Part shown: piece after piece, positions 17,338 through 40,770 of the stretch
Position numbering within the stretch: position 1 is the stretch's first letter
How the letters are laid out: every line of letters starts with the position of its first letter
IMG/VR virus record: IMGVR_UViG_3300035698_015907
DNA: 64,000 nucleotides
Reading direction: 5' to 3' (one strand)
Source of the DNA: a virus
Program-made: the position numbers and the translations under genes
Notes under the pieces: generated by a model
The model's input: only the letters and a program-made list of their open reading frames with translations
Database searches by the model: none
What the model was told of the DNA's origin: nothing

Positions 17338-18804
17338 TTATTTCTTTTTCCACGGCATATCTACTACGCCAGCCATAATAGATCCTCTTGGCATAATACG
17401 ATCTTCAACAGTAGCAAGACCATATTTATTTATTTGACTCTGGACTTGTTCAGCATTTTTATATGATGACGGAAGCTCAGATATATCAATATCACCAGTG
17501 TAAAACCGAATATCAAGACCTTCGGTTTCCCTTTTCAATACTGCATCTTTAACTTCTTTTGGAACAGTCCTATTTTTATTCCACTGATCTCTCACGCCAA
17601 ATTCATCTACAATTCTTCTAGTATGTTCAGTTCTTGACAAGTTTCTTCCTGCACCATGGGGTGCAAAACCAAGATTCTTATCTGAATTAGCATGGCTAGT
17701 AAGAAGAATTGGCTGAGCCATATTCAAAGGAATGATAGTAATTCCATTATCATCTAATGAATACCCATCATATGATGGCGTAGCTCCTTTAGCATGGAAG
17801 AAATTATCTCCACGTTTGAACACGAAGTTGTGTTCATTCCAAAACCAGTCTTCCATGGAATTACCAAGTCTTTTTGCAATAGTTTCGTGTATAGCAAAAT
17901 GATTCATTTTAGTCCACAAACGAACAGTCTGAAGAGCTATCCAATAATCATGACCAATTTTGCTGTCATAATCTAGCCACGCCTGATGCTCTGGAATTCT
18001 TGGTGCTACAACAGCAGTATGCTTCTTTGCAGCTGACATTCCATGCTTATATAACAAACCACCAAGAGACCTAGAACCATGATGAGTAACTAGACACATC
18101 TGTCCTGTGGATTCTAATTCACCGACATACAAAAAGTGATTTCCATCACCTTGAGTCATAAAGTGGTTCTCGGCAGCATCAACAAACTTCTTATTATCAA
18201 GAAAACTATTTCCTTCGAATTTAGAAATAAGTTCCTTTAGTTTGTGGTTTCTGCGCACTTCTGATTTAGATCTTTTGCCTAAACCAAAGTGAGTAACTTT
18301 CATTGCTTCATCAAGAACTCTTTTTACATCATCATTGCGCTTGAAAATAGTTACTGCCATCGAGCAGCAAATATCAGCAGAATGCATTCCTGGATGAATG
18401 GTACCTTTAGTTTCTATTACGCCCCCAACTGGAATAGTTCCAAGCTGATTTCCAGCCGGCATTGAATCTGGCATAACCGCAGCTCTTTCCACGGTCGGTA
18501 GTCTCATAATTGCATCCATGTGTTGGATTACATTTTTGAGATTCTCTCTTTCATCATCAGATTCTGGATCTAAAAATATCTCGAACGGGCGAGAATTTGT
18601 ACGAAGAGATAAAAGGCTTTCTTCATACACTTTCTGTTTTTCTAGAACATCATCATAGAATTTTAAAGCAGCAAATTTAATTTCATCTAATGAACTGCCT
18701 TTATTTTCCATTAGATTTACAACATTTAACAAATCACGAAAGTGTTTACCTTCCGGGATTCCCCACTCTTTTAATTTTTCGCCATTCATAGTATCATCCG
18801 CCAC
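17338..18804 (-). CDS. rtcB: RtcB-family RNA ligase
   Basis: MPD, SADICCS, GDGNHF, THHGSR, NEHN, HAKGAT, HGAGR, ELPSSYK. Confidence 0.92.
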   Translation of the reverse strand: MADDTMNGEKLKEWGIPEGKHFRDLLNVVNLMENKGSSLDEIKFAALKFYDDVLEKQKVYEESLLSLRTNSRPFEIFLDPESDDERENLKNVIQHMDAIMRLPTVERAAVMPDSMPAGNQLGTIPVGGVIETKGTIHPGMHSADICCSMAVTIFKRNDDVKRVLDEAMKVTHFGLGKRSKSEVRRNHKLKELISKFEGNSFLDNKKFVDAAENHFMTQGDGNHFLYVGELESTGQMCLVTHHGSRSLGGLLYKHGMSAAKKHTAVVAPRIPEHQAWLDYDSKIGHDYWIALQTVRLWTKMNHFAIHETIAKRLGNSMEDWFWNEHNFVFKRGDNFFHAKGATPSYDGYSLDDNGITIIPLNMAQPILLTSHANSDKNLGFAPHGAGRNLSRTEHTRRIVDEFGVRDQWNKNRTVPKEVKDAVLKRETEGLDIRFYTGDIDISELPSSYKNAEQVQSQINKYGLATVEDRIMPRGSIMAGVVDMPWKKK

Positions 18805-21473: not shown

Positions 21474-21666
21474 AAAAGAAGTTTTTATATTTTTAGATGC
21501 TTTAAGGCGCAGTGGCGCTGTGAATATGTTTAGTGCTTCTTCATATATTGAAGAAGAGTTTGATCTACCTAACAAAGAATCAAAACAGCTGTTAGTAGAT
21601 TAGATGGAAACATTTGATGATGAAATATCTGTTGAAGATAGAATAAAACAACTAAAAAGTAGTTGA
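21463..21666 (+). CDS. small conserved phage protein with in-frame TAG (21601-21603)
   Basis: MAGKKEVFIFLDALRRSGAVNMFSASSYIEEEFDLPNKESKQLLVD*METFDDE...; SD GGAG. Confidence 0.65.
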
Positions 21667-21758
21667 CAAACATAAAACTCTGATATATAATATCTTACCA
21701 TCAATTTAGAATGGTTAATAAGCACAAAGATATTAACATTATCTGAGCGAGGATACAA

Positions 21759-23264
21759 ATGAACAAGTTTATGAAGTCACTAAAGACAAATCAAGAAAAG
21801 AAGCTAACCGAGAATGGAGGAATTACTTTTGATTCCTCGGGTCAATCTAATGTTGATCTGTTTTTCCAAATCGGTGCACTTCGTGGTCAAGAACCAGATC
21901 GGCTTTATAGACTTTTTTCTAAGGCTTACGGCGAAAATAAAGAACTAGCAATTAGAACTATGTTGTGGGTTCGTGATGTTAGGGGAGGAGCTGGTGAACG
22001 CAAGATTTTTAGGGATCTACTAACCTGGCTCGAAACTAATGATCGCGATATTTTGGTAGATATTCTTCCAGCGATTCCAGAGCTGGGACGTTGGGACGAT
22101 CTTTTGGTTTTCGGTACTAAGAAATTCAAGACCAATGCTTTCAATATGATTGAACAAGCTTTGGGCGAAGCAAATGGTCTTTGTGCAAAATGGATGCCTC
22201 GAAAGGGCGTCGTTGCAAATGAACTTAGAAACCATATGAAACTTTCACCGAAGCGATATAGAAAACTTCTAGTTGAATTAACTAATGTTGTCGAAAATCA
22301 GCTTTGCGCTAAGCAGTGGGAAGACGTTAATTATGAAAAAGTTCCTTCTGTAGCTCAGTCTAGATATAATAGAACTTTCCTACGACATGATGAGGAAAGG
22401 TATCGTGAATTTAGTGAAAAAGCTAAGACATATGCTGAAGCTGTAGCATCAGGTGAACCGATTCCAGATGATGTTGAAAAGGTAAAAATCAATGCTGGTG
22501 CCGTATATCCATATGATGTTTTGAAGTCTGTCGTTAATAGTTATTTTGGCGGCTATGGTTATGGAGCACAAGATAATAGTTTCAGTGTCGATACTGTTAG
22601 AGCACAGTGGTTGACTTTGCCTAATTATATAGGAAATAATAGTGTTCTTCCTATGGTTGATGTTTCAGGATCAATGACTTCATTGATTGGTTCGAAAAAT
22701 CTAAGTGCGTTGCAAGTTGCATTGTCACTTGGTTTGTATATGTCTGGAAAGAACAGCGGCGCATTTCATAATGCTCTATTGACTTTCACTTCTGTGCCGG
22801 AGTTGATTCACTTGAAGGGTGAAGATATTATTGCTCATATAGAGCAGATGTCTAAAGATCGCTGGTATGGATCTACAAACGTTTCTGCAGCATTTACAAA
22901 GATTTTGTCTTTCGCAGTTAAGAATGCTGTTCCACAGGAAGATATGCCTGAATATATCATAGTATTTTCTGATATGGAATTTGATCGTGCTGATCGTACT
23001 GGTGGTGAAACTGCATCTGAAGATATGGAAATCCAGTTTTCTAGTGCTGGCTATAGAGTTCCTAAAGTTGTTTGGTGGAATATCCAATCACGTCAGGATA
23101 ATGTACCAGTATCATTTAATAAGAATGGTGCTGCTCTAGTTTCTGGTTTTTCGCCATCTCTTGCAAAGAACATCATGAGTGGTGAAAGTATTAATCCAAC
23201 TGAAATGATGCTAAAAGTTATCATGGACGAAAGATACGATCTAAAGAAGTATGCAGCCGCTTAA
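21759..23264 (+). CDS. DUF2828 / TROVE(Ro60)-like protein with C-terminal vWA domain
   Basis: TENG, RDVRGGAGER, GRWDDL, AKWMPR, MIDAS VDVSGSM, FSDMEFD, LVSGFSP; own sigma70 promoter at about 21663-21691. Confidence 0.85.
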   Translation: MNKFMKSLKTNQEKKLTENGGITFDSSGQSNVDLFFQIGALRGQEPDRLYRLFSKAYGENKELAIRTMLWVRDVRGGAGERKIFRDLLTWLETNDRDILVDILPAIPELGRWDDLLVFGTKKFKTNAFNMIEQALGEANGLCAKWMPRKGVVANELRNHMKLSPKRYRKLLVELTNVVENQLCAKQWEDVNYEKVPSVAQSRYNRTFLRHDEERYREFSEKAKTYAEAVASGEPIPDDVEKVKINAGAVYPYDVLKSVVNSYFGGYGYGAQDNSFSVDTVRAQWLTLPNYIGNNSVLPMVDVSGSMTSLIGSKNLSALQVALSLGLYMSGKNSGAFHNALLTFTSVPELIHLKGEDIIAHIEQMSKDRWYGSTNVSAAFTKILSFAVKNAVPQEDMPEYIIVFSDMEFDRADRTGGETASEDMEIQFSSAGYRVPKVVWWNIQSRQDNVPVSFNKNGAALVSGFSPSLAKNIMSGESINPTEMMLKVIMDERYDLKKYAAA

Positions 23265-23474
23265 AGAAAGAGTAAAATGAAGAATTTTTTTCTAGATCCT
23301 TTGTTTTGGCTATGTTTTGTTGGTGTACTTTTTGTATCAGGATTATGTTCAGTGTTCATTTATCCTGATTCACCAGCAGTAGGTAGATTTATCGCAGCAT
23401 TTCTTATTGGAATTGTTGGAGGTAAGTTTTATGGAGTTCTTTCAAAATAAGAGGACCACGGCCCTCTTATTTTA

Positions 23475-23503
23475 TTGACAAATGCATTTATCTCGTATAA
23501 ATA
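23475..23503 (+). promoter_or_regulatory. promoter of tRNA array (TTGACA plus TATAAATA)
   Basis: TTGACA 23475-80, TATAAATA 23496-503, after a terminator hairpin at about 23446-23472. Confidence 0.65.
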
Positions 23504-23518
23504 GATGCATATGATTAT

Positions 23519-23590
23519 GGGGTAGGCGTCGGGACGCAAGTTTCCTTTGCACGGAGACTGTCGAGGGTTCAACTCCCTTCTACTCCACCA
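23519..23590 (+). tRNA. tRNA-Ala(TGC)
   Basis: cloverleaf, G3:U70, CCA. Confidence 0.85.
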
Positions 23591-23591
23591 C

Positions 23592-23667
23592 GGGCCCATA
23601 GCTCAGCTGGGAGAGCGTCTGAATGGCATTCAGAAGGTCGTCGGTTCGATCCCGATTGGGTCCACCA
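23592..23667 (+). tRNA. tRNA-Ala(GGC)
   Basis: cloverleaf, CCA. Confidence 0.92.
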
Positions 23668-23717
23668 AATTTTTATGGTTGACAAGGTAAGTTTTACTTG
23701 GTATAATTAATTATAAT

Positions 23718-23792
23718 GCGGGTATAGCTCAGTGGCAGAGCTTTAGTTTTCCAAACTAAGAGTCGTGGGTTCGATCCCCATTGCCCGCTCCA
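23718..23792 (+). tRNA. tRNA-Gly(TCC)
   Basis: cloverleaf, U73 CCA. Confidence 0.92.
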
Positions 23793-23906
23793 AACATCGG
23801 AGATTGCGCTTTGAGTAAAACTCTTAAGTTCGTCTTCTACATCGGTTTATTGAAAATTGCAATATTAACGGTGATTATAGTGTATATAATGACGTTTTAG
23901 AAATAT

Positions 23907-23982
23907 GCCCCGGTAGGCAAACGGCAAAGCCGCTCTTCTCAAAAGAGAGTGTATGTAGGTTCGACTCTTACCCGGGGCACCA
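23907..23982 (+). tRNA. tRNA-Leu(CAA), short variable region
   Basis: loop CTCAAAA, CCA. Confidence 0.88.
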
Positions 23983-23991
23983 GATTTAACT

Positions 23992-24075
23992 GCGCTTGTG
24001 GCGGAATGGTAGACGCACTGGTTTTAGGTACCAACGCCGAAAGGCATGGAGGTTCGAGTCCTCTCAAGCGCACCA
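23992..24075 (+). tRNA. tRNA-Leu(TAG)
   Basis: type II cloverleaf, CCA. Confidence 0.92.
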
Positions 24076-24145
24076 ATTATCATTAGAATGGAGGCGAGAT
24101 TCAAGCACATTCTAATGAAGGGACGATGCATCGTCCCGGTGATAT

Positions 24146-24218
24146 GCCTGTGAAACTAAGTAGTTCGATCGTTCTCATAAGACGATTCGCGGAGGGGCGG
24201 GACCTCCCATAGGTACCA
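24146..24218 (+). tRNA. tRNA-Met(CAT), divergent T-loop
   Basis: acceptor GCCTGTG/CATAGGT, loop CTCATAA, T-loop GGCGGGA. Confidence 0.75.
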
Positions 24219-24230
24219 ATTTTGAATAAT

Positions 24231-24305
24231 GCTCTTGTCGTCTAGTGGCTAAGGCGTTCGGCCGATAACCGAGAAAACATGGATCGAAACCATGCTGGAG
24301 CACCA
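24231..24305 (+). tRNA. tRNA-Ile(GAT), C33 instead of U33
   Basis: loop CCGATAA, CCA. Confidence 0.8.
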
Positions 24306-24312
24306 AATGAAT

Positions 24313-24398
24313 GCGATTGTGGTGGAATGGTAGACACGATAGCTTGAGGGGCTATTGAGGTAACACTCGTGAAGGTTCAAATCCTTTCAGTCGCACCA
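24313..24398 (+). tRNA. tRNA-Leu(GAG)
   Basis: type II cloverleaf, CCA. Confidence 0.92.
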
Positions 24399-24604
24399 AA
24401 GAATTAGGCTCTGAATTCGGCATAATAATCAGTCTTTTTGCGAGGACAATGATTAAAACCGGAACTAGCGCAAACTAGTACTGTATCTGAGATGGTATAG
24501 GTTTCCTGTGAAGGGAATGGGCTGGATTATAAAGTTTGAAAGAGTTCTTTGAGAACGTTTAAGTTTACTTAAATAAAGGTTCGATTCCTTTTCTTTCTCA
24601 GAAT

Positions 24605-24697
24605 TGCGGGGTTGAGAAGTCTGGTCATCTCCCTGGTCTCATAAGCCAGTAGCGCAACGACGTTGCGTCGGGGGTTCAAATCCCCCTCCCGCTTCCA
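24605..24697 (+). tRNA. tRNA-Met(CAT) with long variable arm (possibly initiator-derived)
   Basis: loop CTCATAA; extra arm GCGCAAC/GTTGCGT; probable 1:72 mismatch. Confidence 0.75.
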
Positions 24698-24814
24698 GTA
24701 TAGGTCTATCAATCCCTCAGAGTTTGACTCTGAAATAATAGATTGTTGATAACAGGTGCGTAACTACAACAATATTTGGAGCCCAAGGTGATCCAAATGC
24801 CTATAAACTAATAT

Positions 24815-24895
24815 GGACCTGGAGCGTAAAGCTACTCAGGAGAGAGCAATGGCTTCAGCCATCCGCAGGAGGTTCGATACCTCCCAGGTCTTCCA
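24815..24895 (+). ncRNA. tRNA-like RNA, 8/4 fold, TTCA tetraloop at anticodon position
   Basis: acceptor GGACCTGG/CCAGGTCT, T-loop TTCGATA, CCA; same scaffold as the tRNA-Lys at 40852. Confidence 0.6.
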
Positions 24896-25005
24896 TTGTT
24901 GGTATCTAACACCAATAGAAGTTAGATATTTTTGAAACCCCTGCCGATGTGGGCTCAAGAAGAATGTTGAATATCGGATAGGTAAGTTTGAAGGCTTACC
25001 GAACT

Positions 25006-25080
25006 GCTCGAGTATTCTAATGGCAGTGATCATTCCTTGGTACGGAATGGGTCTGGGTTCGATTCCCGGTTCGAGCACCA
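25006..25080 (+). tRNA. tRNA-Thr(GGT)
   Basis: cloverleaf, CCA. Confidence 0.9.
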
Positions 25081-25300
25081 TAGAATTTAAATGAAAGAAT
25101 TTGTGAATGTCAGATACTGTTATTGATAACTTATATGTTCGGATTTTTTTATACATTCGGTGTAAATTACAATGACCATTCAGAGTTAGAACAAAAACTT
25201 GATACTGGTGTGATTGTTGCTAGATCATTAACTCTCAGTATTTTTGGCCAATATATTGGCCTGCTAGAATATCAATTGATTTGACTAAAAACTAATAAAT

Positions 25301-25376
25301 GCCTCATAGGTGAAAATGGCTGTCATGCCTCTCTTGTAAGGAGGAGGACTCGGTTCGAATCCGGGATGGGGCACCA
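25301..25376 (+). tRNA. tRNA-Thr(TGT)
   Basis: cloverleaf, CCA. Confidence 0.9.
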
Positions 25377-25385
25377 CAAATTTAA

Positions 25386-25460
25386 GCTCGGTTAACTCAG
25401 CGGAAGAGTGTCTCTTTTACACGGAGAAAGTCGTGGGTTCGATCCCCTCACCGAGTACCA
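25386..25460 (+). tRNA. tRNA-Val(TAC)
   Basis: cloverleaf, CCA. Confidence 0.92.
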
Positions 25461-25467
25461 ATTTAGA

Positions 25468-25542
25468 GCCTGATTAGCTCAGAGGAAGAGCACTACGTTG
25501 ACATCGTAGGGGCGGCAGGATCGTTACCTGCATCAGGCACCA
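25468..25542 (+). tRNA. tRNA-Val(GAC)
   Basis: cloverleaf, CCA. Confidence 0.9.
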
Positions 25543-25547
25543 TTAAT

Positions 25548-25622
25548 GCGGTTGTAGCTCAGTGGAAGAGCGAAACATTGCCAATGTTTAGGTCGCGGGT
25601 TCAATCCCCGCCAGCCGCTCCA
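25548..25622 (+). tRNA. tRNA-Gly(GCC)
   Basis: cloverleaf, CCA. Confidence 0.92.
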
Positions 25623-25639
25623 TTAAATGGATATTCTAT

Positions 25640-26065
25640 ATGAATGATGATAAAGAGGAAGTTTGGCGCTTTGATGAAAAATCAAATGAGCATAGCGTTG
25701 AATTTGATAATACATTCATAGATGGAAAATATACTGAATATGTTCCATTAGAAGATCCTAAAGATAGAGCAAGGCAATTACATGTAATTGAACACTATGT
25801 ATCTAATACTGTACATGTACTTAATACTAATATTAAATCTTGGATCGGTCAGCGTTTCAAAATACAAATTGGGAAGTATAAAGGATATACTGGTACAGTA
25901 ATTGATTGTATAATAGTTGCTTGTTATAATAGAAATGACGGCAGAAGTTATGGAATCAATTTTATGCTTGAAATAGATAGAAAAGATGGTTCTGGCACTA
26001 TTGCTATTGGTCCGAATTATTGGACTCGAGTTTATTATGCTGCTCATGATTTAGAAACTATATGA
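25640..26065 (+). CDS. hypothetical protein
   Basis: 141-aa ORF inside tRNA array. Confidence 0.6.
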   Translation: MNDDKEEVWRFDEKSNEHSVEFDNTFIDGKYTEYVPLEDPKDRARQLHVIEHYVSNTVHVLNTNIKSWIGQRFKIQIGKYKGYTGTVIDCIIVACYNRNDGRSYGINFMLEIDRKDGSGTIAIGPNYWTRVYYAAHDLETI

Positions 26066-26256
26066 GAAAATTTATTTTAGAACTTGAAATTGATGGTGAT
26101 CAGCACGAAAGATTCGAAGAAGTTCGTTTGAGAGATATTGAAAAAGATCGGTTATTAACAGAAGCTGGTTGGCAAATACTTCGAATAAAGTGGAAAGATA
26201 TGTTCAAAGATACTAAATTTTGGACACAGAAAGCCAATAGTTTTATTGGGTTGTAG
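26062..26256 (+). pseudogene. C-terminal fragment of a DUF559/Vsr-like endonuclease
   Basis: LEIDGDQH..RD..KD..L...GWQILRIKW; N-terminal half absent; runs into tRNA-Asn. Confidence 0.65.
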
Positions 26257-26321
26257 CTCAACGGTAGAGCACCGAGCTGTTAACTCGACGGTTGCAGGTT
26301 CGAATCCTGCCCTCCCAGCCA
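26247..26321 (+). tRNA. tRNA-Asn(GTT), mismatched acceptor stem
   Basis: loop CTGTTAA, G73 CCA. Confidence 0.85.
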
Positions 26322-26365
26322 ATTCCTAAGCTTCGTTCGAATCGAAGTGCAGGAGCCATTTATTA

Positions 26366-26442
26366 CTGGCTATAGCTCAGCTTGGCAGAGCGCCTGCTTT
26401 GGGAGCAGGAAGTCGGAGGTTCAAATCCTCCTAGCCAGACCA
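26366..26442 (+). tRNA. tRNA-Pro(TGG)
   Basis: cloverleaf, CCA. Confidence 0.92.
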
Positions 26443-26453
26443 AATTATGAATA

Positions 26454-26531
26454 CTGTGTGTAGCTCAGCTTGCGAAGAGCGCTTCCCTCGGAAGGAAGAG
26501 GCCAGAGGTTCAAATCCTCTCACACAGACCA
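26454..26531 (+). tRNA. tRNA-Pro(CGG)
   Basis: cloverleaf, CCA. Confidence 0.9.
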
Positions 26532-26535
26532 AAAT

Positions 26536-26610
26536 ATGGGTGTAGCTCAGAGGAAGAGCACGAGTCTCCAAAACTCGGTGTCGGGATTTCGAAATTCCCC
26601 ACCCATGCCA
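26536..26610 (+). tRNA. tRNA-Trp(CCA)
   Basis: loop CTCCAAA, G73 CCA. Confidence 0.9.
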
Positions 26611-26789
26611 ATTTAGAATATTGATATGAAACTTTATCGATATAAAAGGAATGGACAGCTTTATCTTTTGTATAAAGTAAATCCACCTAGACAAACTGGT
26701 AGTTATTATGAAGCTGTTGGATATAGTCATCATGATGTTATCAAGAATGTAAAGTTAAAGGATTTCGTATTAAAATATAATAATTAAAT

Positions 26790-26865
26790 GCCCATCAAGC
26801 TAACCAGGTGGAAGCGCTTGTCTGAAGAACAAGAGGGCTCCGATCAATACGGAGGATGGGCACCA
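26790..26865 (+). tRNA. tRNA-Phe(GAA)
   Basis: loop CTGAAGA, CCA. Confidence 0.88.
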
Positions 26866-26872
26866 TATTCAA

Positions 26873-26939
26873 GGTATACTTACAGCAACTATTGCCTTAA
26901 GGGCATTCAAACTTGAACTTTGAAGAAGAATGTATACCG
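26873..26939 (+). ncRNA. UUACAGCA stem RNA 1 (putative Y-like RNA)
   Basis: GGTATAC-TTACAGCAA...GTATACC-G; internal anticodon-like hairpin TTCAAA-CTTGAAC-TTTGAA. Confidence 0.65.
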
Positions 26940-26951
26940 ATAACTACATAA

Positions 26952-27028
26952 TGCCCTCTAGCACAATTGGTAGTGGCGCCTGGCTCTGAACCAGGAGGTT
27001 CTAGGTTCGAGACCTGGGAGGGCAACCA
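26952..27028 (+). tRNA. tRNA-Gln(CTG)
   Basis: U1:A72, loop CTCTGAA, CCA. Confidence 0.9.
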
Positions 27029-27117
27029 TTTTAAGGATATGAAATGTCGATATTGTTTGTTCCAGTATTAATAGGAATATCATTAGCGTTTCATATCCTT
27101 CGTACTAAAGATACTAA

Positions 27118-27181
27118 AGGATCATTACAGCATTAATACTATTTCAGATAATAAGGCGCTGTTCAGACAGCATTGATCCTG
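27118..27181 (+). ncRNA. UUACAGCA stem RNA 2
   Basis: AGGATCA-TTACAGCAT...TGATCCT-G; internal GCTG-TTCAGA-CAGC hairpin. Confidence 0.6.
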
Positions 27182-27282
27182 AAATTATAATTATTGTTTT
27201 GCTGCAGCATAATTTATTAGCTGGTTCGATTCCGACTATCCCCGCCATATGGGGATTTTGGTAAAAACAAACCAGAAAAATT

Positions 27283-27370
27283 GGAAGATAAACTGAGTAG
27301 GTCACTCAGGGCTCCCTGGAAAGGAGTACGGTCCCACTGGACTGCGTTTCGAGTACGCTGTCTTCCGCCA
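27283..27370 (+). tRNA. tRNA-Ser(GGA)
   Basis: type II, G73 CCA. Confidence 0.85.
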
Positions 27371-27383
27371 TTAAGGATGTAAA

Positions 27384-27566
27384 ATGTCAGCATTAATTTC
27401 TTTTGTGATAGTCGCAGCTGTTGCGTTGCTTATAGCAGAAATTTGTATTTTTATTGTTAGAAAAGTACCTATCATAGATAACGCAATCAAACAGATTGTA
27501 GAATGGGCAATTTATGCCGTAACTGCAATTTATCTTCTCATGGAAATTTTGAAGTTAGTAGGATAA
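27384..27566 (+). CDS. small two-TM membrane protein
   Basis: 60 aa, hydrophobic. Confidence 0.6.
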   Translation: MSALISFVIVAAVALLIAEICIFIVRKVPIIDNAIKQIVEWAIYAVTAIYLLMEILKLVG

Positions 27567-27646
27567 TAAATCTAACAGGGTTAGACATCGTTTCGAAAAC
27601 GATTGGGTCCTAACGGACTGGGGATCGAGACCTCTATTATCCGCCA
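27561..27646 (+). tRNA. tRNA-Ser(CGA)
   Basis: type II, G73 CCA. Confidence 0.85.
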
Positions 27647-27652
27647 TCTATT

Positions 27653-27739
27653 GGAGAGTCAACCTAACAGGGGTTAGGGCCCGCCTTGAAAGCGGATCGG
27701 TCCTTCGGGACTGGGGTTCGAGTCCTCGGCTCTCCGCCA
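27653..27739 (+). tRNA. tRNA-Ser(TGA)
   Basis: type II, G73 CCA. Confidence 0.9.
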
Positions 27740-27806
27740 TCTAATTAAATTTAATAACATATAATAAACGGTTGACAACGGATGCTAACCGTGGTATAAA
27801 TAAAGT

Positions 27807-28200
27807 CATGATCAAGTTGTTAAGTCAGCAGGTTCATAGCAGATGGTTTCAGGACCCGGGGGCAGTACCCGGCGCCTCCACCATGAGTACACAGTAACAA
27901 AATATATTTTGTTATAACAAAATATTGGTCAGGACTTCCGCGGCCCTGGTTTTATTATAGTTGTTAAACGATCTCACTCGCGATCACTCGCGATGAGATG
28001 CAGAATCTATAATAGTTATCTGTGTATTCTTGATGGGGGCGAAATAGGTTTCGACTGATGCAGTAAACTAGAAAATCGATCATCGTTTTGCACACGCCAG
28101 TGCTCGTAAGATAGATGCCAACGATAATGACATCGCTGTTGAGATGGCCCTAGCGGCTTAATCTCTCGGGGTTCGAAGGTACCTGGCAACAGAAACCTTC
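27807..28200 (+). ncRNA. ssrA: two-piece (permuted) tmRNA, alphaproteobacterial type; tag ANDNDIAVEMALAA
   Basis: acceptor piece ends GACCCGGGGGCAGTACCCGGCGCCTCCACCA (27883); coding piece starts GGGGGCGAAATAGG (28035); tag ORF 28117-28161; 3' CCTGGCAACAGAA motif; promoter TTGACA 27772 / TATAAA 27795. Confidence 0.92.
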
Positions 28201-28216
28201 ACTTAATTTTGGCTAA

Positions 28217-28340
28217 AGGATTGTTACAGCAAAATTTATGCTTGGCTTTCAACCACCTTGTCGTAGGTTCGAATCCTACCTTCTCCAATTGGGGAAGTAG
28301 CTCAGTTCGGTAGAGCGGGTAACGCAAAAAAGCAATCCTG
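28217..28340 (+). ncRNA. UUACAGCA stem RNA 3 containing a circularly permuted tRNA (YrlA-like topology)
   Basis: AGGATTGT-TACAGCAAAATTTA, then T arm GTAGG-TTCGAAT-CCTAC, acceptor CTTCTCC-AATT-GGGGAAG, D arm GCTC-AGTTCGGTA-GAGC, then GCAATCCT-G. Confidence 0.8.
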
Positions 28341-28371
28341 ACCAGCATACCACGAATTAATAATTTGAATT

Positions 28372-28448
28372 GCCCCGATAGCTCAACGGTTAGAGCAGAT
28401 GTTTCTAAAGCATTGTGTTGTGGGTTCGAATCCCACTCGGGAGCGCCA
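28372..28448 (+). tRNA. amber suppressor tRNA (anticodon CTA)
   Basis: anticodon arm GATGT-TTCTAAA-GCATT; canonical D and T arms; acceptor with a bulged A; G73 CCA. Confidence 0.85.
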
Positions 28449-28567
28449 TTTGAGGAACTATAATGAATAATTTTTAGATTAATATGGAGGTGATGATGTA
28501 GATCATTAAGAAACCTCCATAAAGTACATATCAATTGAACATTAATTTTAATTCAAGGAGATATGTA

Positions 28568-28969
28568 ATGCATTCTGAAACAAGAAAATGGGTTGAAGAT
28601 TCAATCCGCAATGAATATTTTTTCACCAAAGAAAGTTCTGAGTTTAATAGTCTTTGGCGAGAATATTTTTCAATTATTAATAAGTTTTCAAAAGAGTTGA
28701 ACACCCTCAATACTTCTAAAGAAGTATATTTGGATTGGGTTAAGACTTGGAGAATGTTTTATTCTAAGCTTTCTTATGAAAGTAGAATGTGCAAGAAGGC
28801 TAGGAAAACTACAAAGTTTAGTAATAGTCATGCAGAATATGCCGCTGAAAATGCACGAAGACTTAAGACTGTTGCAACAAGTATGATGCATCTTAGGGCA
28901 GAATCAAAAGAATTTGCCGAAGAATCATATTTAAAAGAACATAAAGAAAAAAGTGAAATAGCAGCTTAA
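28568..28969 (+). CDS. hypothetical helical protein
   Basis: SD AAGGAG; YLDWVKTWRMFY; ends in AA. Confidence 0.65.
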   Translation: MHSETRKWVEDSIRNEYFFTKESSEFNSLWREYFSIINKFSKELNTLNTSKEVYLDWVKTWRMFYSKLSYESRMCKKARKTTKFSNSHAEYAAENARRLKTVATSMMHLRAESKEFAEESYLKEHKEKSEIAA

Positions 28970-29011
28970 ATAAAGGTTGACATGTTAATTCTAGTGTGGT
29001 AATATTACTAC

Positions 29012-29999
29012 ACAATAACAAATTAGCAAATTGCCTTTTAACAAAAGCAGAAAGAAAATATATAACAAGAATTGCGTGTGGCAAATGGATGGTGTTTAGC
29101 CATCGCCTACTAATCAAGGAATAACCTGTCTCTTAAAAGACAAACGAGATTAGATGCAGCAAGAATTGGCGGCGTGACGTCATTAGGATAAGTTCCGTAA
29201 GGAACCCAATGCAGGAATTCCTACATACCTGCTCTGAAAGGCCATTTACGCAGACCTGACCGACATCGCGAGATGTGCTTCGTTTAGAAAACGGACGGAG
29301 ATAAAATGGAAGTCAGGCAGAGGAAATAGCATATGTTTATGTGCCACCTCGGTGGGAACACAAGCATATGAAGAGATCTGGAAAATCCTCTCTGCAACCA
29401 AACTGACCATATTCTACGGTAAAGGGTAGTTCATTTGTTCGAGATCGCAATCAAGAGCTTATGAGCAGTTTTGCGGGTTAAGGGTTTCACTTGTAGTGAA
29501 GTCATTGATCCAAAGAAATCAGCTGAGTAGTCGGCAGACGAAAGGTATGAGGAGTGTTGTATTCTGTATCTAACAAGATTCGGAGCAACTGAGATAGCAC
29601 TTTTCTGTAGGTTAGCATAGCTCAAACTAGAGCAACTCGGTTTTAACGAGTAGGTTGGTGGTCTGATAGCCACCTGTTTATTTAAACGCAAAGACTATCT
29701 CAGATAACCACGTAAAGTGGCAAATGGTTGAACCTTCGGGTAATCAACCCCAAAGAGACTCGCAAGGTCAAATTGGTTCGTATTTAATGTTTCATAAAGG
29801 GAAGCACCCTTGAATGGCCCGCAAGGTCAATGAGAATATGAATGCGGAGTAGTGGTTATTGTTAAGCCTAACGCATGGCTTTAAATTGCGCCATCGATGT
29901 TTTACCGGAAAATTCTGGTGGATGTCTTGTTAATCTCACTCGCAAGGTGTAGAGTACGGCAGGAAGAAGCATCATATAAACGGGTAATCTCACCGTTTT
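29012..29999 (+). ncRNA. GOLLD-like giant structured ncRNA with embedded tRNA-like (TTT) domain
   Basis: about 1 kb without a credible ORF after a TTGACA/TAATAT promoter; many GNRA/UUCG hairpins; GAGTGTTGTATT, GCAACTGAG, terminal CGG-GTAATCTCA-CCG; located in tRNA array. Confidence 0.75.
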
Positions 30000-30028
30000 G
30001 TAATTCTCTTAATGGATTAAGTGATAAA

Positions 30029-30412
30029 ATGAAAATCAAAGTTATTCTAACTCAAGATTTTTATCAACACGACTATGATGATTATGACAGTAATAGGATT
30101 ATTACATCTGGTATTACTGAGTGGGAAGAAGTAACTCCAAAAGAATTTGAGTTTCTTAGACAGAATATTAAAAAAATTAATGTTAACGATCAAAATGCAA
30201 TAATAGTTCAGCAGGATGATATTCCTGTAATTAGACGTATTGCAGATATTAAAGAATATATTAAAAAAGAAGTTGCAGCAGAAGAAGCTCGGCGAGAAAA
30301 AGAAAAGAAGATTGCTGAAGATAAAAAAACAGCGTGGCTTCTAAAAAAGAAAACAAAGATTGAAGCAGATGAACTTTTGTTGCTGAAAACTTTGCAAGAA
30401 AAATATAAATAA
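30029..30412 (+). CDS. hypothetical coiled-coil protein (true start 30029)
   Basis: MKIKVILTQ..SGITEWEEV; upstream part of the track ORF lies in the ncRNA. Confidence 0.65.
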   Translation: MKIKVILTQDFYQHDYDDYDSNRIITSGITEWEEVTPKEFEFLRQNIKKINVNDQNAIIVQQDDIPVIRRIADIKEYIKKEVAAEEARREKEKKIAEDKKTAWLLKKKTKIEADELLLLKTLQEKYK

Positions 30413-30418
30413 CATCAA

Positions 30419-30504
30419 GGAAAGTGAAACGGGGAGGTCTCCGTACCTGTTTGCTAAACAACGTGCTCTAATAGAGTGGGCTTCGATTGCTCCGCTTTCC
30501 GCCA
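30419..30504 (+). tRNA. tRNA-Ser(GCT)
   Basis: type II, G73 CCA. Confidence 0.8.
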
Positions 30505-30511
30505 GTTTTAT

Positions 30512-30601
30512 GGGATACTTACAGCAAAATTTACATTAGCAATGGTAGCTAATCTGTCTTTAAAACAGATGATTCGGTTCAGATCCGACAAGTGTATCCC
30601 G
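30512..30601 (+). ncRNA. UUACAGCA stem RNA 4 with D-, anticodon(TTA)- and T-like arms
   Basis: GGGATAC-TTACAGCAAAATTTA, TTAGC-AATGGTA-GCTAA, TCTGT-CTTTAAA-ACAGA, TCGG-TTCAGAT-CCGA, GTATCCC-G. Confidence 0.75.
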
Positions 30602-38085: not shown

Positions 38086-38538
38086 TATGAAGTTCATTTG
38101 GTATCTTTTCAAGAGTACATTTATTACTGGATCAGTAATAATCGGGGCAATTTTCTTAGCTTCATTGTTTTTTGCACTAACTTGCAGATCTGGTGATTCT
38201 GGTTGTGGAATAATAGCAATTGGTGTACCATATGCTCTCTTTATGTATCAATGGATTGTTTGGATTGCTGCTGCTTTATGGACGCTGTTCAAATATATCA
38301 TTGCTAATCGATTTGGAAATTTTTTATAAATGGATGCAAAAGAAGGTGATACTGTTAGATGGATTTCGTCAATAGATAAAATTGAAAGAATTGGCTTGGT
38401 TGTAAGAAAACTTCCTTGCAAAAGTAAAAGAGAGCCACGACCATCGAAGCATTGGTATTCTATTGTTAAATCTACTACGCCTATTATAAGCTTAGAATTA
38501 GCACCGAGTTCTGCAATTAAAGAGATAATTGAAGCAAG

Positions 38539-39012
38539 TTGACTGTAATAGCATATAGAAATGGTATAATAGCTTCTGATAGTCTTATGGCTGATACTAA
38601 TAGTGGTAGTGTACATTTCACCACTGAAAAATTATTCAGAATGGCTAATGGGGAAGTTATAGGTTGCGCTGGAGATATAAGAGAGTATACTAGATTTATT
38701 GAATGGTATGAAAGTGGCGAATTCATCGACTCTTGGGAACCTCATGAAGAAGATACGTTTGAAGCCATATGTGCGTACTCAAATGGTTGTATTCATTATT
38801 TTGACAATTCAACGAGAGCAATAGAAATAAAAAATGATTACATAGCAATTGGTATTGCAGCAGATGTTGCAATGGGTGCTATGTATATGGGAGCTGATGC
38901 AGACATTGCAGTTAAAGCAGCTTGTGAATTGAATGTGTGGTGTCGGCTGCCGATTAGAATAGAAAAAATATCAAAAGAGGAATCAAATAATGACTTTAGT
39001 ACAACATCCTAA
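38539..39012 (+). CDS. HslV/proteasome-type Ntn hydrolase
   Basis: N-terminal (M)TVIAY..ASDS, GCAG, AIG..A.GAM..GA. Confidence 0.75.
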   Translation: MTVIAYRNGIIASDSLMADTNSGSVHFTTEKLFRMANGEVIGCAGDIREYTRFIEWYESGEFIDSWEPHEEDTFEAICAYSNGCIHYFDNSTRAIEIKNDYIAIGIAADVAMGAMYMGADADIAVKAACELNVWCRLPIRIEKISKEESNNDFSTTS

Positions 39013-40165
39013 ACTTTACAAAAAAGACGATCATGAAAATGTTAGAGTGTGGTGGGTAGAAACTGATGAAGATCAGTATCGAGTAGTGTATGGTGTACTC
39101 GATGGTAAAATGGTTGATTCTGATTGGAAGACTGCGGTACCTAAGAATGTTGGTAAAGTGAATGGAACTACAGGAATATCTCAGGCTATTTCTGAAAAGG
39201 ATTCTCTTTATAAAAAGCAGCTGAAGCAGGGTAAGTATCACGAATCCATCGATGATGTTGATGAGGATGGATACTTTGAACCTATGCTCGCTACAGTGTG
39301 GACTAATTCTAAAAAGAAGCCCATTGGTAAAAAAATTCTAGAAGATGCATTTGAATCTAAAAATTATAGAATTTTTGTTCAGCCAAAATTAGATGGTATT
39401 CGTAATATTACTACATCTAGCGAGATGAGATCACGCAATGGAGAAAAGAGAGTATCATGTCCGCACATTCATAATGCTCTTGCTGATTTCTTTGTACAGC
39501 ATCCTGATGTTATTCTTGATGGAGAATTGTACAATCATGAATACCATGATAATTTCAATCAGATACAATCTCACGTTCTAAAAACTAAGCCTGGTCTTAT
39601 TGATCTTGCCGAGACCGCTAAAAATATCAAATATTATGTTTATGATGCATATATTCTAAGTCTGCCTACAGTTCCATATAACCAGCGTAACATATTAATT
39701 AATGAACTTGTTGGTACTCCCGGTATTGAAGTAGTAAAAACTCATGAAGTTCTTAGTATGGAAGAACTCGATGAAATTTACGGAGAAATTCTAAACCAGA
39801 ATTATGAAGGAATGGTTGCTAGAATTAATGGTTCATATGAACCCGGTAAGCGTTCTAAGCTCCTCATAAAGCGCAAAGAATTCTTTGATGAAGAATTTGA
39901 AATTGTTGATATTATGGAAGGTACTGGCAATTGGAACGGAAAAGCTAAATCTGTGAAGTTTAAACTTCCAGATCGTGATCTACCTTATGATAAATTGCCT
40001 GAATCTGGTATTAGAGGTGATGAAGCAGAAATGTCTGAGCTCCTAAGAAATAAAGGCAAGTATATTGGCGGTGATGTTACTGTTAGATACCCCAATAAAA
40101 CTCCTGATGGGAAGCCGCGGTTTGGTGTTGCAATCGCTTTTTATGAAGGTAAAAGAAAGTCTTAA
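38990..40165 (+). CDS. ATP-dependent DNA ligase
   Basis: PMLA, QPKLDGIR, LDGELY, YEGMV, KRS..L.KRK, PRF. Confidence 0.92.
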   Translation: MTLVQHPKLYKKDDHENVRVWWVETDEDQYRVVYGVLDGKMVDSDWKTAVPKNVGKVNGTTGISQAISEKDSLYKKQLKQGKYHESIDDVDEDGYFEPMLATVWTNSKKKPIGKKILEDAFESKNYRIFVQPKLDGIRNITTSSEMRSRNGEKRVSCPHIHNALADFFVQHPDVILDGELYNHEYHDNFNQIQSHVLKTKPGLIDLAETAKNIKYYVYDAYILSLPTVPYNQRNILINELVGTPGIEVVKTHEVLSMEELDEIYGEILNQNYEGMVARINGSYEPGKRSKLLIKRKEFFDEEFEIVDIMEGTGNWNGKAKSVKFKLPDRDLPYDKLPESGIRGDEAEMSELLRNKGKYIGGDVTVRYPNKTPDGKPRFGVAIAFYEGKRKS

Positions 40166-40321
40166 TGCTTTGGAGAATCCCTCACACAGTTAAAAATGTT
40201 GAGAATAATATCTCGTCATTTGTAAAATGGATTGTGAAGAAAATAAAAAACTTCAAACACAATAGCTAGGTTGACAGCCTAATATTTTTGTGGTATAATA
40301 TAAAAATGATGGAGGTCATTT

Positions 40322-40579
40322 TTGAAATTCAATTCTAATGCTTCGGCGGAATTTATACTAGATACACCACTGGACCATCCTGAGCGTATTTTTTCTTCCC
40401 CATCAACGATGCGGGATGAATATAAAATACTTGCGAAAAAGTGGCATCCAGATGTTGTTGGTGATTTAGGTTCCGCCGAAGCAGTTCTTGCTCATATCAA
40501 TGTTCTTTTTAAGAATGCAAAAGATAAACCAGCATATAATGAATTTTATGGGGCTTCATTCAAATTTTCAAAACCATGA
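40322..40579 (+). CDS. short J-domain protein
   Basis: YKILAKKWHPD..HIN. Confidence 0.6.
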   Translation: MKFNSNASAEFILDTPLDHPERIFSSPSTMRDEYKILAKKWHPDVVGDLGSAEAVLAHINVLFKNAKDKPAYNEFYGASFKFSKP

Positions 40580-40770
40580 AAACATTAAGAGAAGAAGCAA
40601 TCATAGCAGATGATTGCAATCAAGTTCTTACTGATGTTGACCCTCGCGATATACTTTCTTTGTATAAAGAATTAGATGATCTTCGCGAATATATAAGAAT
40701 ATGGCAAATAGAGAAAAAAAGAGTTGACAATAAAATCTAGTTGTGGTATAAATAGACTATAATAATTTAT

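What the first reader, a model, noticed from the sequence alone, without database searches (positions are those of the whole stretch)
21708..30601. Candidate new RNP system: Ro60/TROVE-like DUF2828 protein plus a family of UUACAGCA-stem RNAs carrying tRNA parts
Seen: four intergenic elements in the tRNA array (26873-26939, 27118-27181, 28217-28340, 30512-30601) share one architecture. Each has a 7-8 bp closing stem, TTACAGCA directly 3' of the 5' strand, a variable cargo and a terminal G. The stem sequence varies while pairing is kept (GGTATAC/GTATACC, AGGATCA/TGATCCT, AGGATTGT/GCAATCCT, GGGATAC/GTATCCC). Every cargo is a tRNA piece: an anticodon stem-loop, a T-like hairpin, a permuted tRNA, or D+anticodon+T arms. 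A degenerate copy (AGAATG..TAAGCA..CATTATCT-G, 21708-21745) sits in the 5' UTR of the DUF2828 gene. Known: bacterial Ro60 (Rsr) binds the terminal stem of Y RNAs, which carry tRNA-like modules and often occur with rtcB. Inference: these are a distinct Y-like RNA class bound by DUF2828 through UUACAGCA. They may act as decoys for host anticodon nucleases or as adaptors for RtcB/CCA tRNA repair, with the UTR copy giving autoregulation.
Basis: partly seen in the sequence, partly recalled or inferred. Interest (0 to 1): 0.92.

Follow-up and report, generated by a model that had tools for sequence, protein, structure and literature searches.

The report
Phage Ro60-like protein, partner RNAs
A salt-lake phage hides four small RNA genes among its tRNA genes; all share one short "handle" that, in hundreds of other phages, travels with a ring-shaped Ro60-like protein also encoded here, so they are most likely that protein's partner RNAs, a largely undescribed cousin of the Ro/Y-RNA particle.

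Summary
Four + strand elements (26873-26939, 27118-27181, 28217-28340, 30512-30601) each have a perfect 7-bp closing stem, UUACAGCA just after the 5' strand, and a G after the 3' strand. ORF 21759-23264 (DUF2828 + vWA) is predicted to fold like Ro60 (Z 24, 416 residues). The same handle, consensus AGGAUNN-NU(A/U)CAGCAA...NNAUCCU-G(UU), is heavily enriched and strand-locked next to DUF2828 genes: 266 versus 21 sites in 81 viral loci, against 15/14 in controls. It shows compensatory stem changes. In 30 of 81 loci it ends 10-27 nt before the DUF2828 start codon. Element 3 carries a YrlA-type permuted tRNA mimic, element 4 a tRNA-like body with a UUA anticodon loop, and element 1 an anticodon-like hairpin. 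Element 2's cargo is not demonstrably tRNA-like. This window's 5'-UTR copy is decayed. Binding, discrete RNAs and function are inferred, not shown. Known already: the protein is annotated "Ro-like", and a 2025 Listeria-phage paper guessed at Y RNAs. I found no description of the handle family in Rfam 15 or the papers searched. The handle matches the Dictyostelium Class I RNAs. This scan has already reported the same system on other DNA (over 130 genomes by its notes).

The parts
21663..21691 (+). Sigma-70-type promoter of the DUF2828 gene (TTGACA-17-TATAAT); predicted start site near 21698
   Evidence: 12 of 12 consensus match; consensus match only, not shown to be active
21708..21745 (+). Degenerate handle copy in the 5' UTR of the DUF2828 gene: AGAATGG-TTAATAAGCA...CATTATCT-G, then SD and ATG
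   Evidence: Sequence. The 3' strand, G, SD and ATG line up with intact UTR handles of other phages. The box is broken, the stem is bulged, and there is no R1 hit at E<=10. An intact handle ends 10-27 nt before the ATG in 30 of 81 other loci.
21759..23264 (+). Ro60-like protein gene (DUF2828 + DUF7788/vWA, 501 aa)
   Evidence: Pfam PF11443 and PF25043; PHROG 850 'RNA-binding protein'. AlphaFold2 model pLDDT 89, pTM 0.88. The top ten structural matches are all Ro60/Rsr/TROVE: Z 24.0, rmsd 3.9 A, 416 residues with 2i91_A. The MIDAS residues D301, S303, S305, T373 and D405 are invariant in 45 relatives.
26873..26939 (+). Handle RNA 1: GGUAUAC/GUAUACC stem, UUACAGCAA box. Cargo is two hairpins, one anticodon-loop-like (CUUGAAC). 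Lies between tRNA-Phe and tRNA-Gln.
   Evidence: R1 44.7 bits, but it is in the seed
27118..27181 (+). Handle RNA 2: AGGAUCA/UGAUCCU stem, UUACAGCA box. Cargo is hairpin GCUGU-UCAG-ACAGC, which carries a second ACAGCA copy next to the 3' strand.
   Evidence: R1 35.0 bits, but it is in the seed; no tRNA-like feature found
28217..28340 (+). Handle RNA 3: AGGAUUG(U)/(G)CAAUCCU stem, UUACAGCAA box. Cargo is a small hairpin, then T arm, closed acceptor stem and D arm (a permuted, YrlA-type tRNA mimic at 28255-28324), then an A-rich linker.
   Evidence: Rfam YrlA positions 23-89, 46 bits, E 1e-9, below the gathering score of 69. It aligns with 12 handle-plus-YrlA-like RNAs of other DUF2828 phages; 15 of 23 pairs show compensatory changes.
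30512..30601 (+). Handle RNA 4: GGGAUAC/GUAUCCC stem, UUACAGCAA box. Cargo is a tRNA-like body (D arm, anticodon arm with UUA anticodon, T arm; 30533-30596) in normal order, with the acceptor largely replaced by the handle.
   Evidence: Rfam tRNA 30.4 bits; R1 28.6 bits, E 1.6e-4, not in the seed
17338..18804 (-). RtcB RNA ligase gene. Context only; a link to the system is inferred.
   Evidence: Pfam PF01139, E 8e-26. RtcB or an RNA ligase also lies near DUF2828 in Listeria phage LP-125 and Salmonella phage Munch.
16049..17275 (-). CCA-adding enzyme / poly(A) polymerase family gene (context only)
   Evidence: Pfam PF01743 and PF12627

Best explanation
The four elements are small non-coding RNAs of a widespread phage family defined by one 'handle'. 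The handle is a 7-bp helix joining the 5' and 3' ends (consensus AGGAUNN/NNAUCCU), an unpaired NU(A/U)CAGCAA box directly after the 5' strand, an A-rich stretch before the 3' strand, and a 3' G, usually GUU. The handle is most likely the binding site for the Ro60-shaped DUF2828 protein encoded 3.6-7.3 kb upstream on the same strand. This parallels Ro60, which holds the terminal stem of Y RNAs. The RNAs would be transcribed with the tRNA array and released by tRNA-processing nucleases, with the closed stem protecting their ends. The variable cargo, mostly tRNA look-alikes, would then tether the ring to tRNA-binding factors. Most plausibly this serves tRNA surveillance, repair or protection during infection, alongside the phage's RtcB ligase and CCA-adding enzyme. 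In many phages a handle in the protein's own 5' UTR, next to the ribosome-binding site, suggests feedback control; in this phage that copy is decayed. Shown here: motif, structure, covariation, co-occurrence and the predicted Ro60 fold. Inferred: binding, processing, function and feedback.
For: Protein. The predicted fold matches Ro60 over the whole length (Z 24.0, 416 residues; all ten top hits are Ro60/Rsr/TROVE, then vWA-only hits at Z about 10). MIDAS residues are invariant.

Forward association, counting handles on the DUF2828 strand versus the opposite strand: 266/21 in 81 IMG/VR loci (76 loci positive), 133/10 in 80 metagenome loci, 55/7 in 34 genome-contig loci, and 15/14 in 117 control loci of similar total size.

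Reverse association. A handle-only pattern expected about 5 times by chance hit at least 120 viral contigs. Of 118 of these, 68 carry DUF2828 (37 within the fetched stretch against 1 of 117 controls). Most of the rest are small fragments.

Specificity. Five DUF2828-negative tRNA-rich phages (T5, T4, Bxz1, CcrColossus, G) had no handle hit. Five of 8 DUF2828-positive cultured phages had hits, often directly upstream of the gene.

RNA-level selection. In alignment A2, 54 double-sided stem changes against 14.5 in shuffles, and inner pairs show all four Watson-Crick types.

Y-RNA likeness. Element 3 and relatives carry the YrlA T / closed acceptor / D module.

Cargo. Anticodon-loop-like hairpins occur in 74 of 200 short cargos against 3.5 expected.

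UTR. A handle ends 10-27 nt before the ATG in 30 of 81 loci.

Context. RtcB and a CCA-adding enzyme lie nearby.

Literature. A P100-like Listeria phage's Rsr-like protein lies downstream of very abundant ncRNAs, and its authors suggest Y RNAs (PMC12282133).
Against: No experiment or read data show that these RNAs exist as discrete species or bind the protein. No RNA run holds this window.

Sequence profiles do not link DUF2828 to TROVE: the Pfam scan at E<=1 gave no TROVE match, and the profile search against PDB sequences gave E 0.5 for the phiLo TROVE protein. The Ro60 link rests on a predicted structure.

The canonical Ro-binding motif GNCGAA is absent.

Some contigs with handles lack DUF2828, including a complete 54-kb record (G119) and large records G063, G080, G092 and G100.

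The window's elements lack the usual GUU tail (only G is kept), and its UTR copy fails the model.

DUF2828 and handles could both simply be parts of a tRNA-array module, with another protein reading the handle. For the look-alike Dictyostelium Class I RNAs, the only proven direct binder is an RRM protein (Rnp1A/CIBP).

In Clostridia-type DUF2828 loci (32-35% identity) my strict pattern was at background (15/8).
Confidence: 0.75

Rival explanations
1. The handle is a processing or stability signal of phage tRNA-array transcripts, or the binding site of some other factor (an RNase, RtcB, or an RRM/KH-type protein). DUF2828 co-occurs only because both belong to the same tRNA-metabolism module.
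For: All four elements lie inside the tRNA array, flanked by tRNAs. About 40% of handle-bearing contigs show no DUF2828, including one complete genome. The look-alike Class I RNA of Dictyostelium is bound directly by an RRM protein (PMC7919456).
Against: tRNA-rich phages without DUF2828 (T4, T5, Bxz1, CcrColossus, G) have no handle hits. Handles cluster directly upstream of the DUF2828 gene, and sit inside its 5' UTR in 30 of 81 loci, even where no tRNA array is adjacent. The partner has the fold of a protein whose known job is to hold such terminal stems.
Confidence: 0.13
2. The elements are aberrant or decaying tRNA genes, or tRNA fragments with insertions, that happen to share a repeat and have no dedicated RNP.
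For: Element 4 scores just above the Rfam tRNA threshold (30.4 against 29). The array holds several other odd tRNA-like genes.
Against: The same handle closes very different cargos, including plain hairpins. It is conserved with compensatory changes across phages whose DUF2828 proteins are under 50% identical. Elements 1 and 2 have no cloverleaf.
Confidence: 0.05
3. They are DNA-level elements: miniature mobile elements or recombination sites with 7-bp terminal inverted repeats.
For: Short inverted repeats flank a variable cargo, with several copies per genome.
Against: The strand bias relative to transcription is extreme (266 against 21). The box is asymmetric and present on one arm only. G-U pairs occur in stems. 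The cargos are structured RNAs with covarying helices. No target-site duplications or transposase association were noticed.
Confidence: 0.03

Closest known systems
Ro60 (Rsr, TROVE + vWA) with Y RNAs: bacterial and phage YrlA/YrlB (Rfam RF02553; Chen et al. 2014, PMC4201824) and Thermus phage phiLo Ro60 with Yrl1/Yrl2 (PMC12135203)
   Same: A ring-plus-vWA protein fold. Small RNAs are encoded near the gene on the same strand and closed by a 5'/3' terminal stem with a conserved motif on the 5' side. One RNA (element 3) has the T arm / closed acceptor / D arm tRNA mimic. RtcB lies nearby, as in the Salmonella rsr-yrlBA-rtcBA operon.
   Different: The protein belongs to Pfam DUF2828, not TROVE, and the similarity shows only at fold level. 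The handle box is (A/U)CAGCAA, not GNCGAA. There are several RNAs per genome (up to 11 per locus) with diverse cargos, many of them minimal hairpins that display anticodon-like loops. A handle often sits in the protein's own 5' UTR. Rfam YrlA scores stay below threshold (46 against 69).
Class I RNAs of Dictyostelia (Aspegren 2004; Avesson 2011; Kjellin et al. 2021, PMC7919456; search pattern in PMC5054030)
   Same: The design is the same: a short stem joining the 5' and 3' ends, a conserved unpaired motif directly after the 5' strand (published pattern GTTGRC-CTTACAGCAA...GTCAAC-TG), an invariant 5' G paired to C, a 3' CUGU tail (the phage consensus is ...CC-UGUU), variable cargo, about 60 nt, and many genes per genome.
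   Different: They are eukaryotic and were reported as unique to dictyostelids. The stem is 6 bp with a different sequence. The known direct binder is the RRM protein Rnp1A/CIBP. No DUF2828-type partner is known, and I could not test whether Dictyostelium encodes one. The window's elements keep only the G of the tail.
Rsr-like CKA15_055 and abundant ncRNAs of P100-like Listeria phage CKA15 (PMC12282133, 2025)
   Same: The related phage LP-125 has a protein of the same family as the window's, annotated DUF2828 (33% identity to the window protein). The authors saw the Rsr likeness by HHpred and proposed that nearby abundant ncRNAs could be Y RNAs.
   Different: No motif or RNA family was defined. 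In LP-125, the region that corresponds by position to their most abundant RNA matches ROOL (87 bits). The three handle RNAs lie in the gap directly upstream of the gene.
T4 stable RNAs C and D in the tRNA cluster (from my own knowledge)
   Same: Small stable non-tRNA RNAs embedded in a phage tRNA array.
   Different: T4 has no DUF2828 gene and no handle hit.

Membership tests
YrlA / bacterial Y RNA (Rfam RF02553) | Score at or above the Rfam gathering threshold (69 bits) | tested here: not met
   The best hit is element 3 at 46 bits, covering model positions 23-89 only. Elements 1, 2 and 4 give no YrlA hit.
YrlA / bacterial Y RNA (Rfam RF02553) | tRNA-like module in the order T arm, closed acceptor-like stem, D arm | tested here: met
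   Met by element 3 only: 28255-28324 aligns to the module at E 1e-9, with covariation across 13 relatives.
YrlA / bacterial Y RNA (Rfam RF02553) | GNCGAA(N0-1)G Ro-binding motif near the 5' end (PMC4201824) | tested here: not met
   The 5' side carries UUACAGCA(A) in all four elements. Model positions 1-22 and 90-114 are not matched.
YrlA / bacterial Y RNA (Rfam RF02553) | Encoded within about 4 kb of a TROVE-domain Ro60 gene on the same strand | tested here: inconclusive
   Same strand, but 3.6-7.3 kb from the gene. The gene is DUF2828, not Pfam TROVE. In other phages the handles lie directly upstream.
Ro60 / TROVE protein family | HEAT-repeat ring plus C-terminal vWA domain | tested here: met
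   Predicted model only: Z 24.0, rmsd 3.9 A over 416 residues with Xenopus Ro60. Ranks 1-10 are all Ro60/Rsr/TROVE.
Ro60 / TROVE protein family | Sequence-level match to the TROVE domain | tested here: not met
   The Pfam scan at E<=1 gives DUF2828, DUF7788 and VWA families but no TROVE. The profile search against PDB sequences gives E 0.5 for the phiLo TROVE protein.
Ro60 / TROVE protein family | MIDAS motif in the vWA domain | tested here: met
   D301-x-S303-x-S305, T373 and D405 are invariant in 45 relatives.
Ro60 / TROVE protein family | Binds the terminal stem of partner RNAs | not testable with these tools
   Only co-occurrence evidence is available.
Dictyostelid Class I RNA | Short stem joining the 5' and 3' ends, with the conserved 11-nt motif (CCUUACAGCAA type) directly after the 5' strand | tested here: met
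   UUACAGCA(A) follows the 5' strand in all four elements. This gives 8-9 of the 10 motif letters of the published pattern CTTACAGCAA.
Dictyostelid Class I RNA | Invariant 5' G paired with the C of a 3' CUGU tail | tested here: inconclusive
   The phage consensus is (A)GG...CC-UGUU. The window's tails are CCG-A, CCUG-A, CCUG-A and CCCG-C, so the G is kept and the U after it is not.
Dictyostelid Class I RNA | Dictyostelid origin with a DUSE promoter; length 42-65 nt | tested here: not met
   The source is a phage from a salt-lake metagenome. Lengths are 67, 64, 124 and 90 nt.

The most novel reading that the evidence does not exclude
The (A/U)CAGCAA-handle RNAs and DUF2828 proteins form a second, ancient Ro/Y-type ribonucleoprotein. 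DUF2828 proteins occur in phages, bacterial genome contigs and eukaryotes (plants, fungi and dinoflagellates). On this reading the unexplained Class I RNAs of Dictyostelium are the same RNA family. That would mean their missing core partner is a DUF2828/Ro-like ring protein, possibly the uncharacterised DDB_G0281243 that was pulled down with Class I RNA DdR-21. It would also mean the family is not unique to dictyostelids.
Probability: 0.25. Interest if true: 0.9.

Novelty: new variant of a known kind. Interest (0 to 1): 0.8.

Why it matters
Ro60 and Y RNAs are a classic but still poorly understood RNA-surveillance particle. This would be a second version with its own recognition code. Relatives of the protein occur in 711 annotated phage records, including tractable ones: Felix O1-type coliphages, P100-type Listeria phages and Campylobacter Fletcherviruses. 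That gives easy genetic systems for asking what such particles do. The tRNA-mimic cargos, together with the neighbouring RtcB and CCA-adding genes, point to the phage-host contest over tRNA integrity. The shared handle offers a concrete, testable lead for the 20-year-old puzzle of the Dictyostelium Class I RNAs. It would also turn many 'hypothetical small ORFs' and blank gaps in phage tRNA regions into annotated RNA genes.

Tried and rejected
1. The exact 14-mer TTACAGCAAAATTT in viral contigs was too unspecific. The 117 loci were reused as controls.

2. Single-protein locus searches found only one viral relative and no metagenome relative. Alignment-based scans returned only relatives of 41-49% identity, so orthologous copies of elements 1-4 in close relatives could not be compared.

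4. Sequencing runs: no RNA holder listed. The nine holders are salt-lake metagenome DNA runs.

5. No whole genome is held for this window.

6. Model R1 did not find the UTR copy, aligned element 3 wrongly because of its long cargo, and gave no further convincing copies in the window. Weak hits at 45251 and 47459 lie inside ORFs.

7. A relaxed regex scan of the window gave mostly chance hits.

8. The strict handle pattern was at background in 46 Clostridia-type DUF2828 loci. It would miss variant handles.

9. Whether Dictyostelium encodes DUF2828 stayed untested. The 'longer' and dinoflagellate-seeded protein searches and the ESM Atlas gave plants, fungi, dinoflagellates and viruses only. DDB_G0281243 appears in only one preprint.

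10. Phage K transcriptome ncRNAs are irrelevant, because phage K has no DUF2828.

11. Complex prediction was not used. I make no protein-protein claim.

12. ACAGCA pairing with the 3' tail UGUUGU was considered and dropped. The tail is not conserved in this window, and the topology is awkward.

Full report
**Setting.** The window is part of a large tRNA-rich phage from a salt-lake metagenome. DNA runs hold 0.9 of its words and no RNA run holds it. No whole genome is held, and there is no close relative in the annotated phage collection. Between 21.7 and 31 kb it encodes:
- a DUF2828/vWA protein (21759-23264);
- about 20 tRNAs;
- a two-piece tmRNA (27768-28203);
- an amber-suppressor-type tRNA(CUA);
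- a GOLLD RNA (29549-29996).
All lie on the + strand. RtcB, a CCA-adding-enzyme homologue and a GatB/YqeY-domain protein lie just upstream on the other strand.

**Observation check.** The four elements are exactly as described. TTACAGCA occurs four times on the + strand, all within 3.7 kb. Each copy is preceded by 7 nt with a perfect complement 40-110 nt downstream followed by G. The 8-mer count alone is unremarkable. In control viral DNA, however, only 1.5% of ACAGCA sites have such a stem plus G, so four of four is about 5e-8 by chance. Each element folds with the closing stem in its minimum-energy structure.

**The protein.** Pfam gives DUF2828 plus DUF7788/vWA and no TROVE. PHROGs calls the family 'RNA-binding protein'. 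An AlphaFold2 model built on 45 relatives is confident (pLDDT 89, pTM 0.88). Foldseek and VIA-align both place Ro60 structures in all top ranks: Xenopus, human, Deinococcus Rsr and Thermus phage phiLo. The best match is Z 24.0, rmsd 3.9 A over 416 residues; vWA-only hits follow at Z about 10. The MIDAS residues are invariant. A sequence profile does not reach Ro60 significantly, so this is a fold-level relative. The family is very large. At least 7,900 proteins match at E<=1e-10, at least 580 IMG/VR contigs carry it, and so do 711 annotated phage records. In mycobacteriophage cluster L it is already labelled 'Ro-like RNA binding protein'.

**The RNA family.** Sub-threshold Rfam YrlA matches occur in 30 of 50 DUF2828-bearing viral records, several directly upstream of the gene. 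Reading their ends showed the same signature as in the window: (A)GGAUAC-UUACAGCA...GUAUCCUGUU.

I then counted handles with a strict definition: a 7-bp stem with G at position 2, then NN, then ACAGCA with at most one mismatch, then 18-170 nt, then the complement, then G. Counts are on the DUF2828 strand versus the opposite strand:
- 81 IMG/VR DUF2828 loci: 266 / 21, with 76 loci positive;
- 80 metagenome DUF2828 loci: 133 / 10;
- 34 genome-contig loci: 55 / 7;
- 117 control viral loci of similar total length: 15 / 14.

In 93 non-redundant elements, stem pairs 1-5 are nearly fixed (A-U, G-C, G-C or A-U, A-U or U-A, U-A). Pairs 6-7 take all four Watson-Crick types. ACAGCA is followed by A in 78 of 93, the stretch before the 3' strand is A-rich, and the tail is G, then U U in 73 of 93. 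On a 32-sequence alignment there are 54 double-sided changes against 14.5 in shuffles, and the signal vanishes when the 3' partner is slid. That set was selected for pairing, so the enrichment against controls is the non-circular evidence.

**Reverse test.** The handle-only pattern AGGATNNNNACAGCAAN{25,55}ATCCTGTT, expected about 5 times by chance, hit at least 120 viral contigs. Of 118 of these, 37 hold DUF2828 within the roughly 9 kb fetched, against 1 of 117 controls. A further 31 hold it elsewhere in the record. Most of the rest are fragments under 20% complete. Five larger records lack it, one of them a complete 54-kb genome.

**Specificity.** Whole-genome searches with model R1 gave no hit in T5, T4, Bxz1, CcrColossus or phage G. 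All five are tRNA-rich and DUF2828-negative, and the last three are cited as carrying canonical Ro60 homologs and Y-RNA-like ncRNAs (PMC12135203). Hits appeared in 5 of 8 DUF2828-positive cultured phages. Examples are three tandem handles in the gap directly upstream of the gene in Listeria phage LP-125, two in Campylobacter phage F374, and one among the tRNAs of Felixounavirus E9. Rfam 15 has no family for the handle: only cargo hits to YrlA and tRNA appear.

**The four elements here.** R1 scores elements 1 and 2 (both in its seed) at 44.7 and 35.0 bits, and the independent element 4 at 28.6 bits.
- Element 3 is a member of a conserved sub-class: handle, small hairpin, T arm, closed acceptor, D arm, A-rich linker. 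15 of 23 pairs show compensatory changes across 13 sequences.
- Element 4 holds D, anticodon (UUA) and T arms in natural order. Its acceptor is cut down to 3-4 pairs and replaced by the handle.
- Element 1 shows an anticodon-like 7-nt loop. Such loops occur in 74 of 200 short cargos family-wide against 3.5 expected, most often with UGU at the anticodon position.
- Element 2 has only a tetraloop hairpin that repeats ACAGCA. I could not call it tRNA-like.
- The window's tails keep the G but not the usual UU.

**The UTR copy.** In 30 of 81 loci a handle ends 10-27 nt before the DUF2828 ATG, often with the box UUCAGCAA. That is good comparative support for control or co-processing at the 5' UTR. 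The window has a perfect promoter at 21663-21691. At the equivalent place it has AGAATGG-TTAATAAGCA...CATTATCT-G, with conserved spacing to the SD and ATG. The box is broken and the stem is bulged, and R1 does not detect it. It is probably a weakened relic.

**Mechanism.** By analogy with Ro60, which reads mainly the 5' strand of the Y RNA terminal helix (PMC4201824), the fixed AGGAU helix plus the unpaired ACAGCAA box is the likely protein-binding site. The variable tRNA-like cargo is the likely effector module. Processing out of the tRNA transcript, binding, feedback and any role in tRNA repair or as a nuclease decoy are inferences. I put the RNP itself at about 0.75 and any specific function at 0.3 or less.

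**Prior knowledge.**
- Chen et al. 2014 described YrlA next to TROVE proteins, with a GNCGAA motif.
- The phiLo study did the same with a CGAA motif.
- A 2025 study of the P100-like phage CKA15 noted the Rsr likeness of CKA15_055, found the protein in virions, and speculated that hyper-abundant ncRNAs nearby are Y RNAs. In the related LP-125, the region that corresponds by position matches ROOL, while the handle RNAs lie next to the gene.
- I found no paper or Rfam family describing the handle.

**Dictyostelium.** The published search pattern is GTTGRC-CTTACAGCAA...GTCAAC-TG (PMC5054030). The published description gives a short terminal stem, an 11-nt motif next to the 5' strand, an invariant 5' G, a 3' CUGU and variable cargo (PMC7919456). 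Both match the phage handle closely. One of four proteins pulled down with Class I RNA DdR-21, DDB_G0281243, is of unknown function. I could not test whether it, or any dictyostelid protein, is DUF2828-like. DUF2828 proteins do occur in plants, fungi and dinoflagellates, and some dinoflagellate ones are fused to KH domains.

**Earlier notes of this scan.** The scan's own notes report the same DUF2828-plus-handle system on other DNA, over 130 genomes by word search. My scores rest on the tests above.

Noticed in passing
window 29549-29996 (probably from about 29010; promoter-like site 28977-29005): GOLLD RNA (Rfam 172 bits) with an embedded tRNA-like module at 29611-29682 (Rfam tRNA 36.9 bits). 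It lies in the same array as the handle RNAs. A GOLLD also lies near the YrlA-like/handle region of another DUF2828 phage (L212, 203 bits).
   Followed up: partly
L516:1471-2022 (Listeria phage LP-125): A ROOL-like RNA (87 bits, E 2e-17, just under the gathering score) sits about 1 kb upstream of the DUF2828 gene. By position it probably corresponds to the hyper-abundant 'CKA15_059-061' transcript that PMC12282133 suggested might be a Y RNA.
   Followed up: partly
window 27283-27372, 27566-27648, 27652-27736, 30420-30505: Four tRNA-like genes ending in CCGCCA that ARAGORN missed. 27283-27372 and 30420-30505 fold into cloverleaf-like shapes with an extra arm, and 27652-27736 matches Rfam tRNA-Sec (47.7 bits). 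27566-27648 shows hairpins but no closing stem in the predicted fold.
   Followed up: partly
window 27194-27270: A T arm plus a closed acceptor-like stem (AUCCCC-GCCAUAU-GGGGAU), enclosed by an A/U stem (TTGTTTT/AAAACAA) with a GCAGCA box but no 3' G. It may be a fifth, divergent member or may be chance; not assigned.
   Followed up: partly
window 27768-28203 and 28372-28444: A two-piece (permuted) tmRNA lies directly before element 3, and a tRNA with anticodon CUA (amber suppressor type) lies directly after it. Element 4 displays the ochre-type UUA anticodon.
   Followed up: no
window 27157-27172: Element 2 has a second ACAGCA inside its hairpin. GCUGU could pair with either box copy, which suggests a possible self-masking switch.
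   Followed up: no
viral records G061 (114278-116805) and G101 (38419-40744): The DUF2828 gene is split into an N-terminal and a C-terminal piece about 0.9-1.1 kb apart. This may be an inserted intron or homing element.
   Followed up: no
proteins P0135 and P0146 (relatives of dinoflagellate DUF2828 proteins): DUF2828 proteins fused to KH RNA-binding domains. Long eukaryotic forms also occur in plants and fungi.
   Followed up: no
window 24076-24230, 24400-24600, 24700-25005: Further structured-looking non-tRNA stretches between tRNAs, with no Rfam match and no handle.
   Followed up: no
L508:5419-5779 (mycobacteriophage LeBron): The 360-nt gap after the 'Ro-like RNA binding protein' gene holds two ACAGCAA boxes. 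One has a GGUCAC/GUGACC stem (weak R1 hits, 12 bits).
   Followed up: partly
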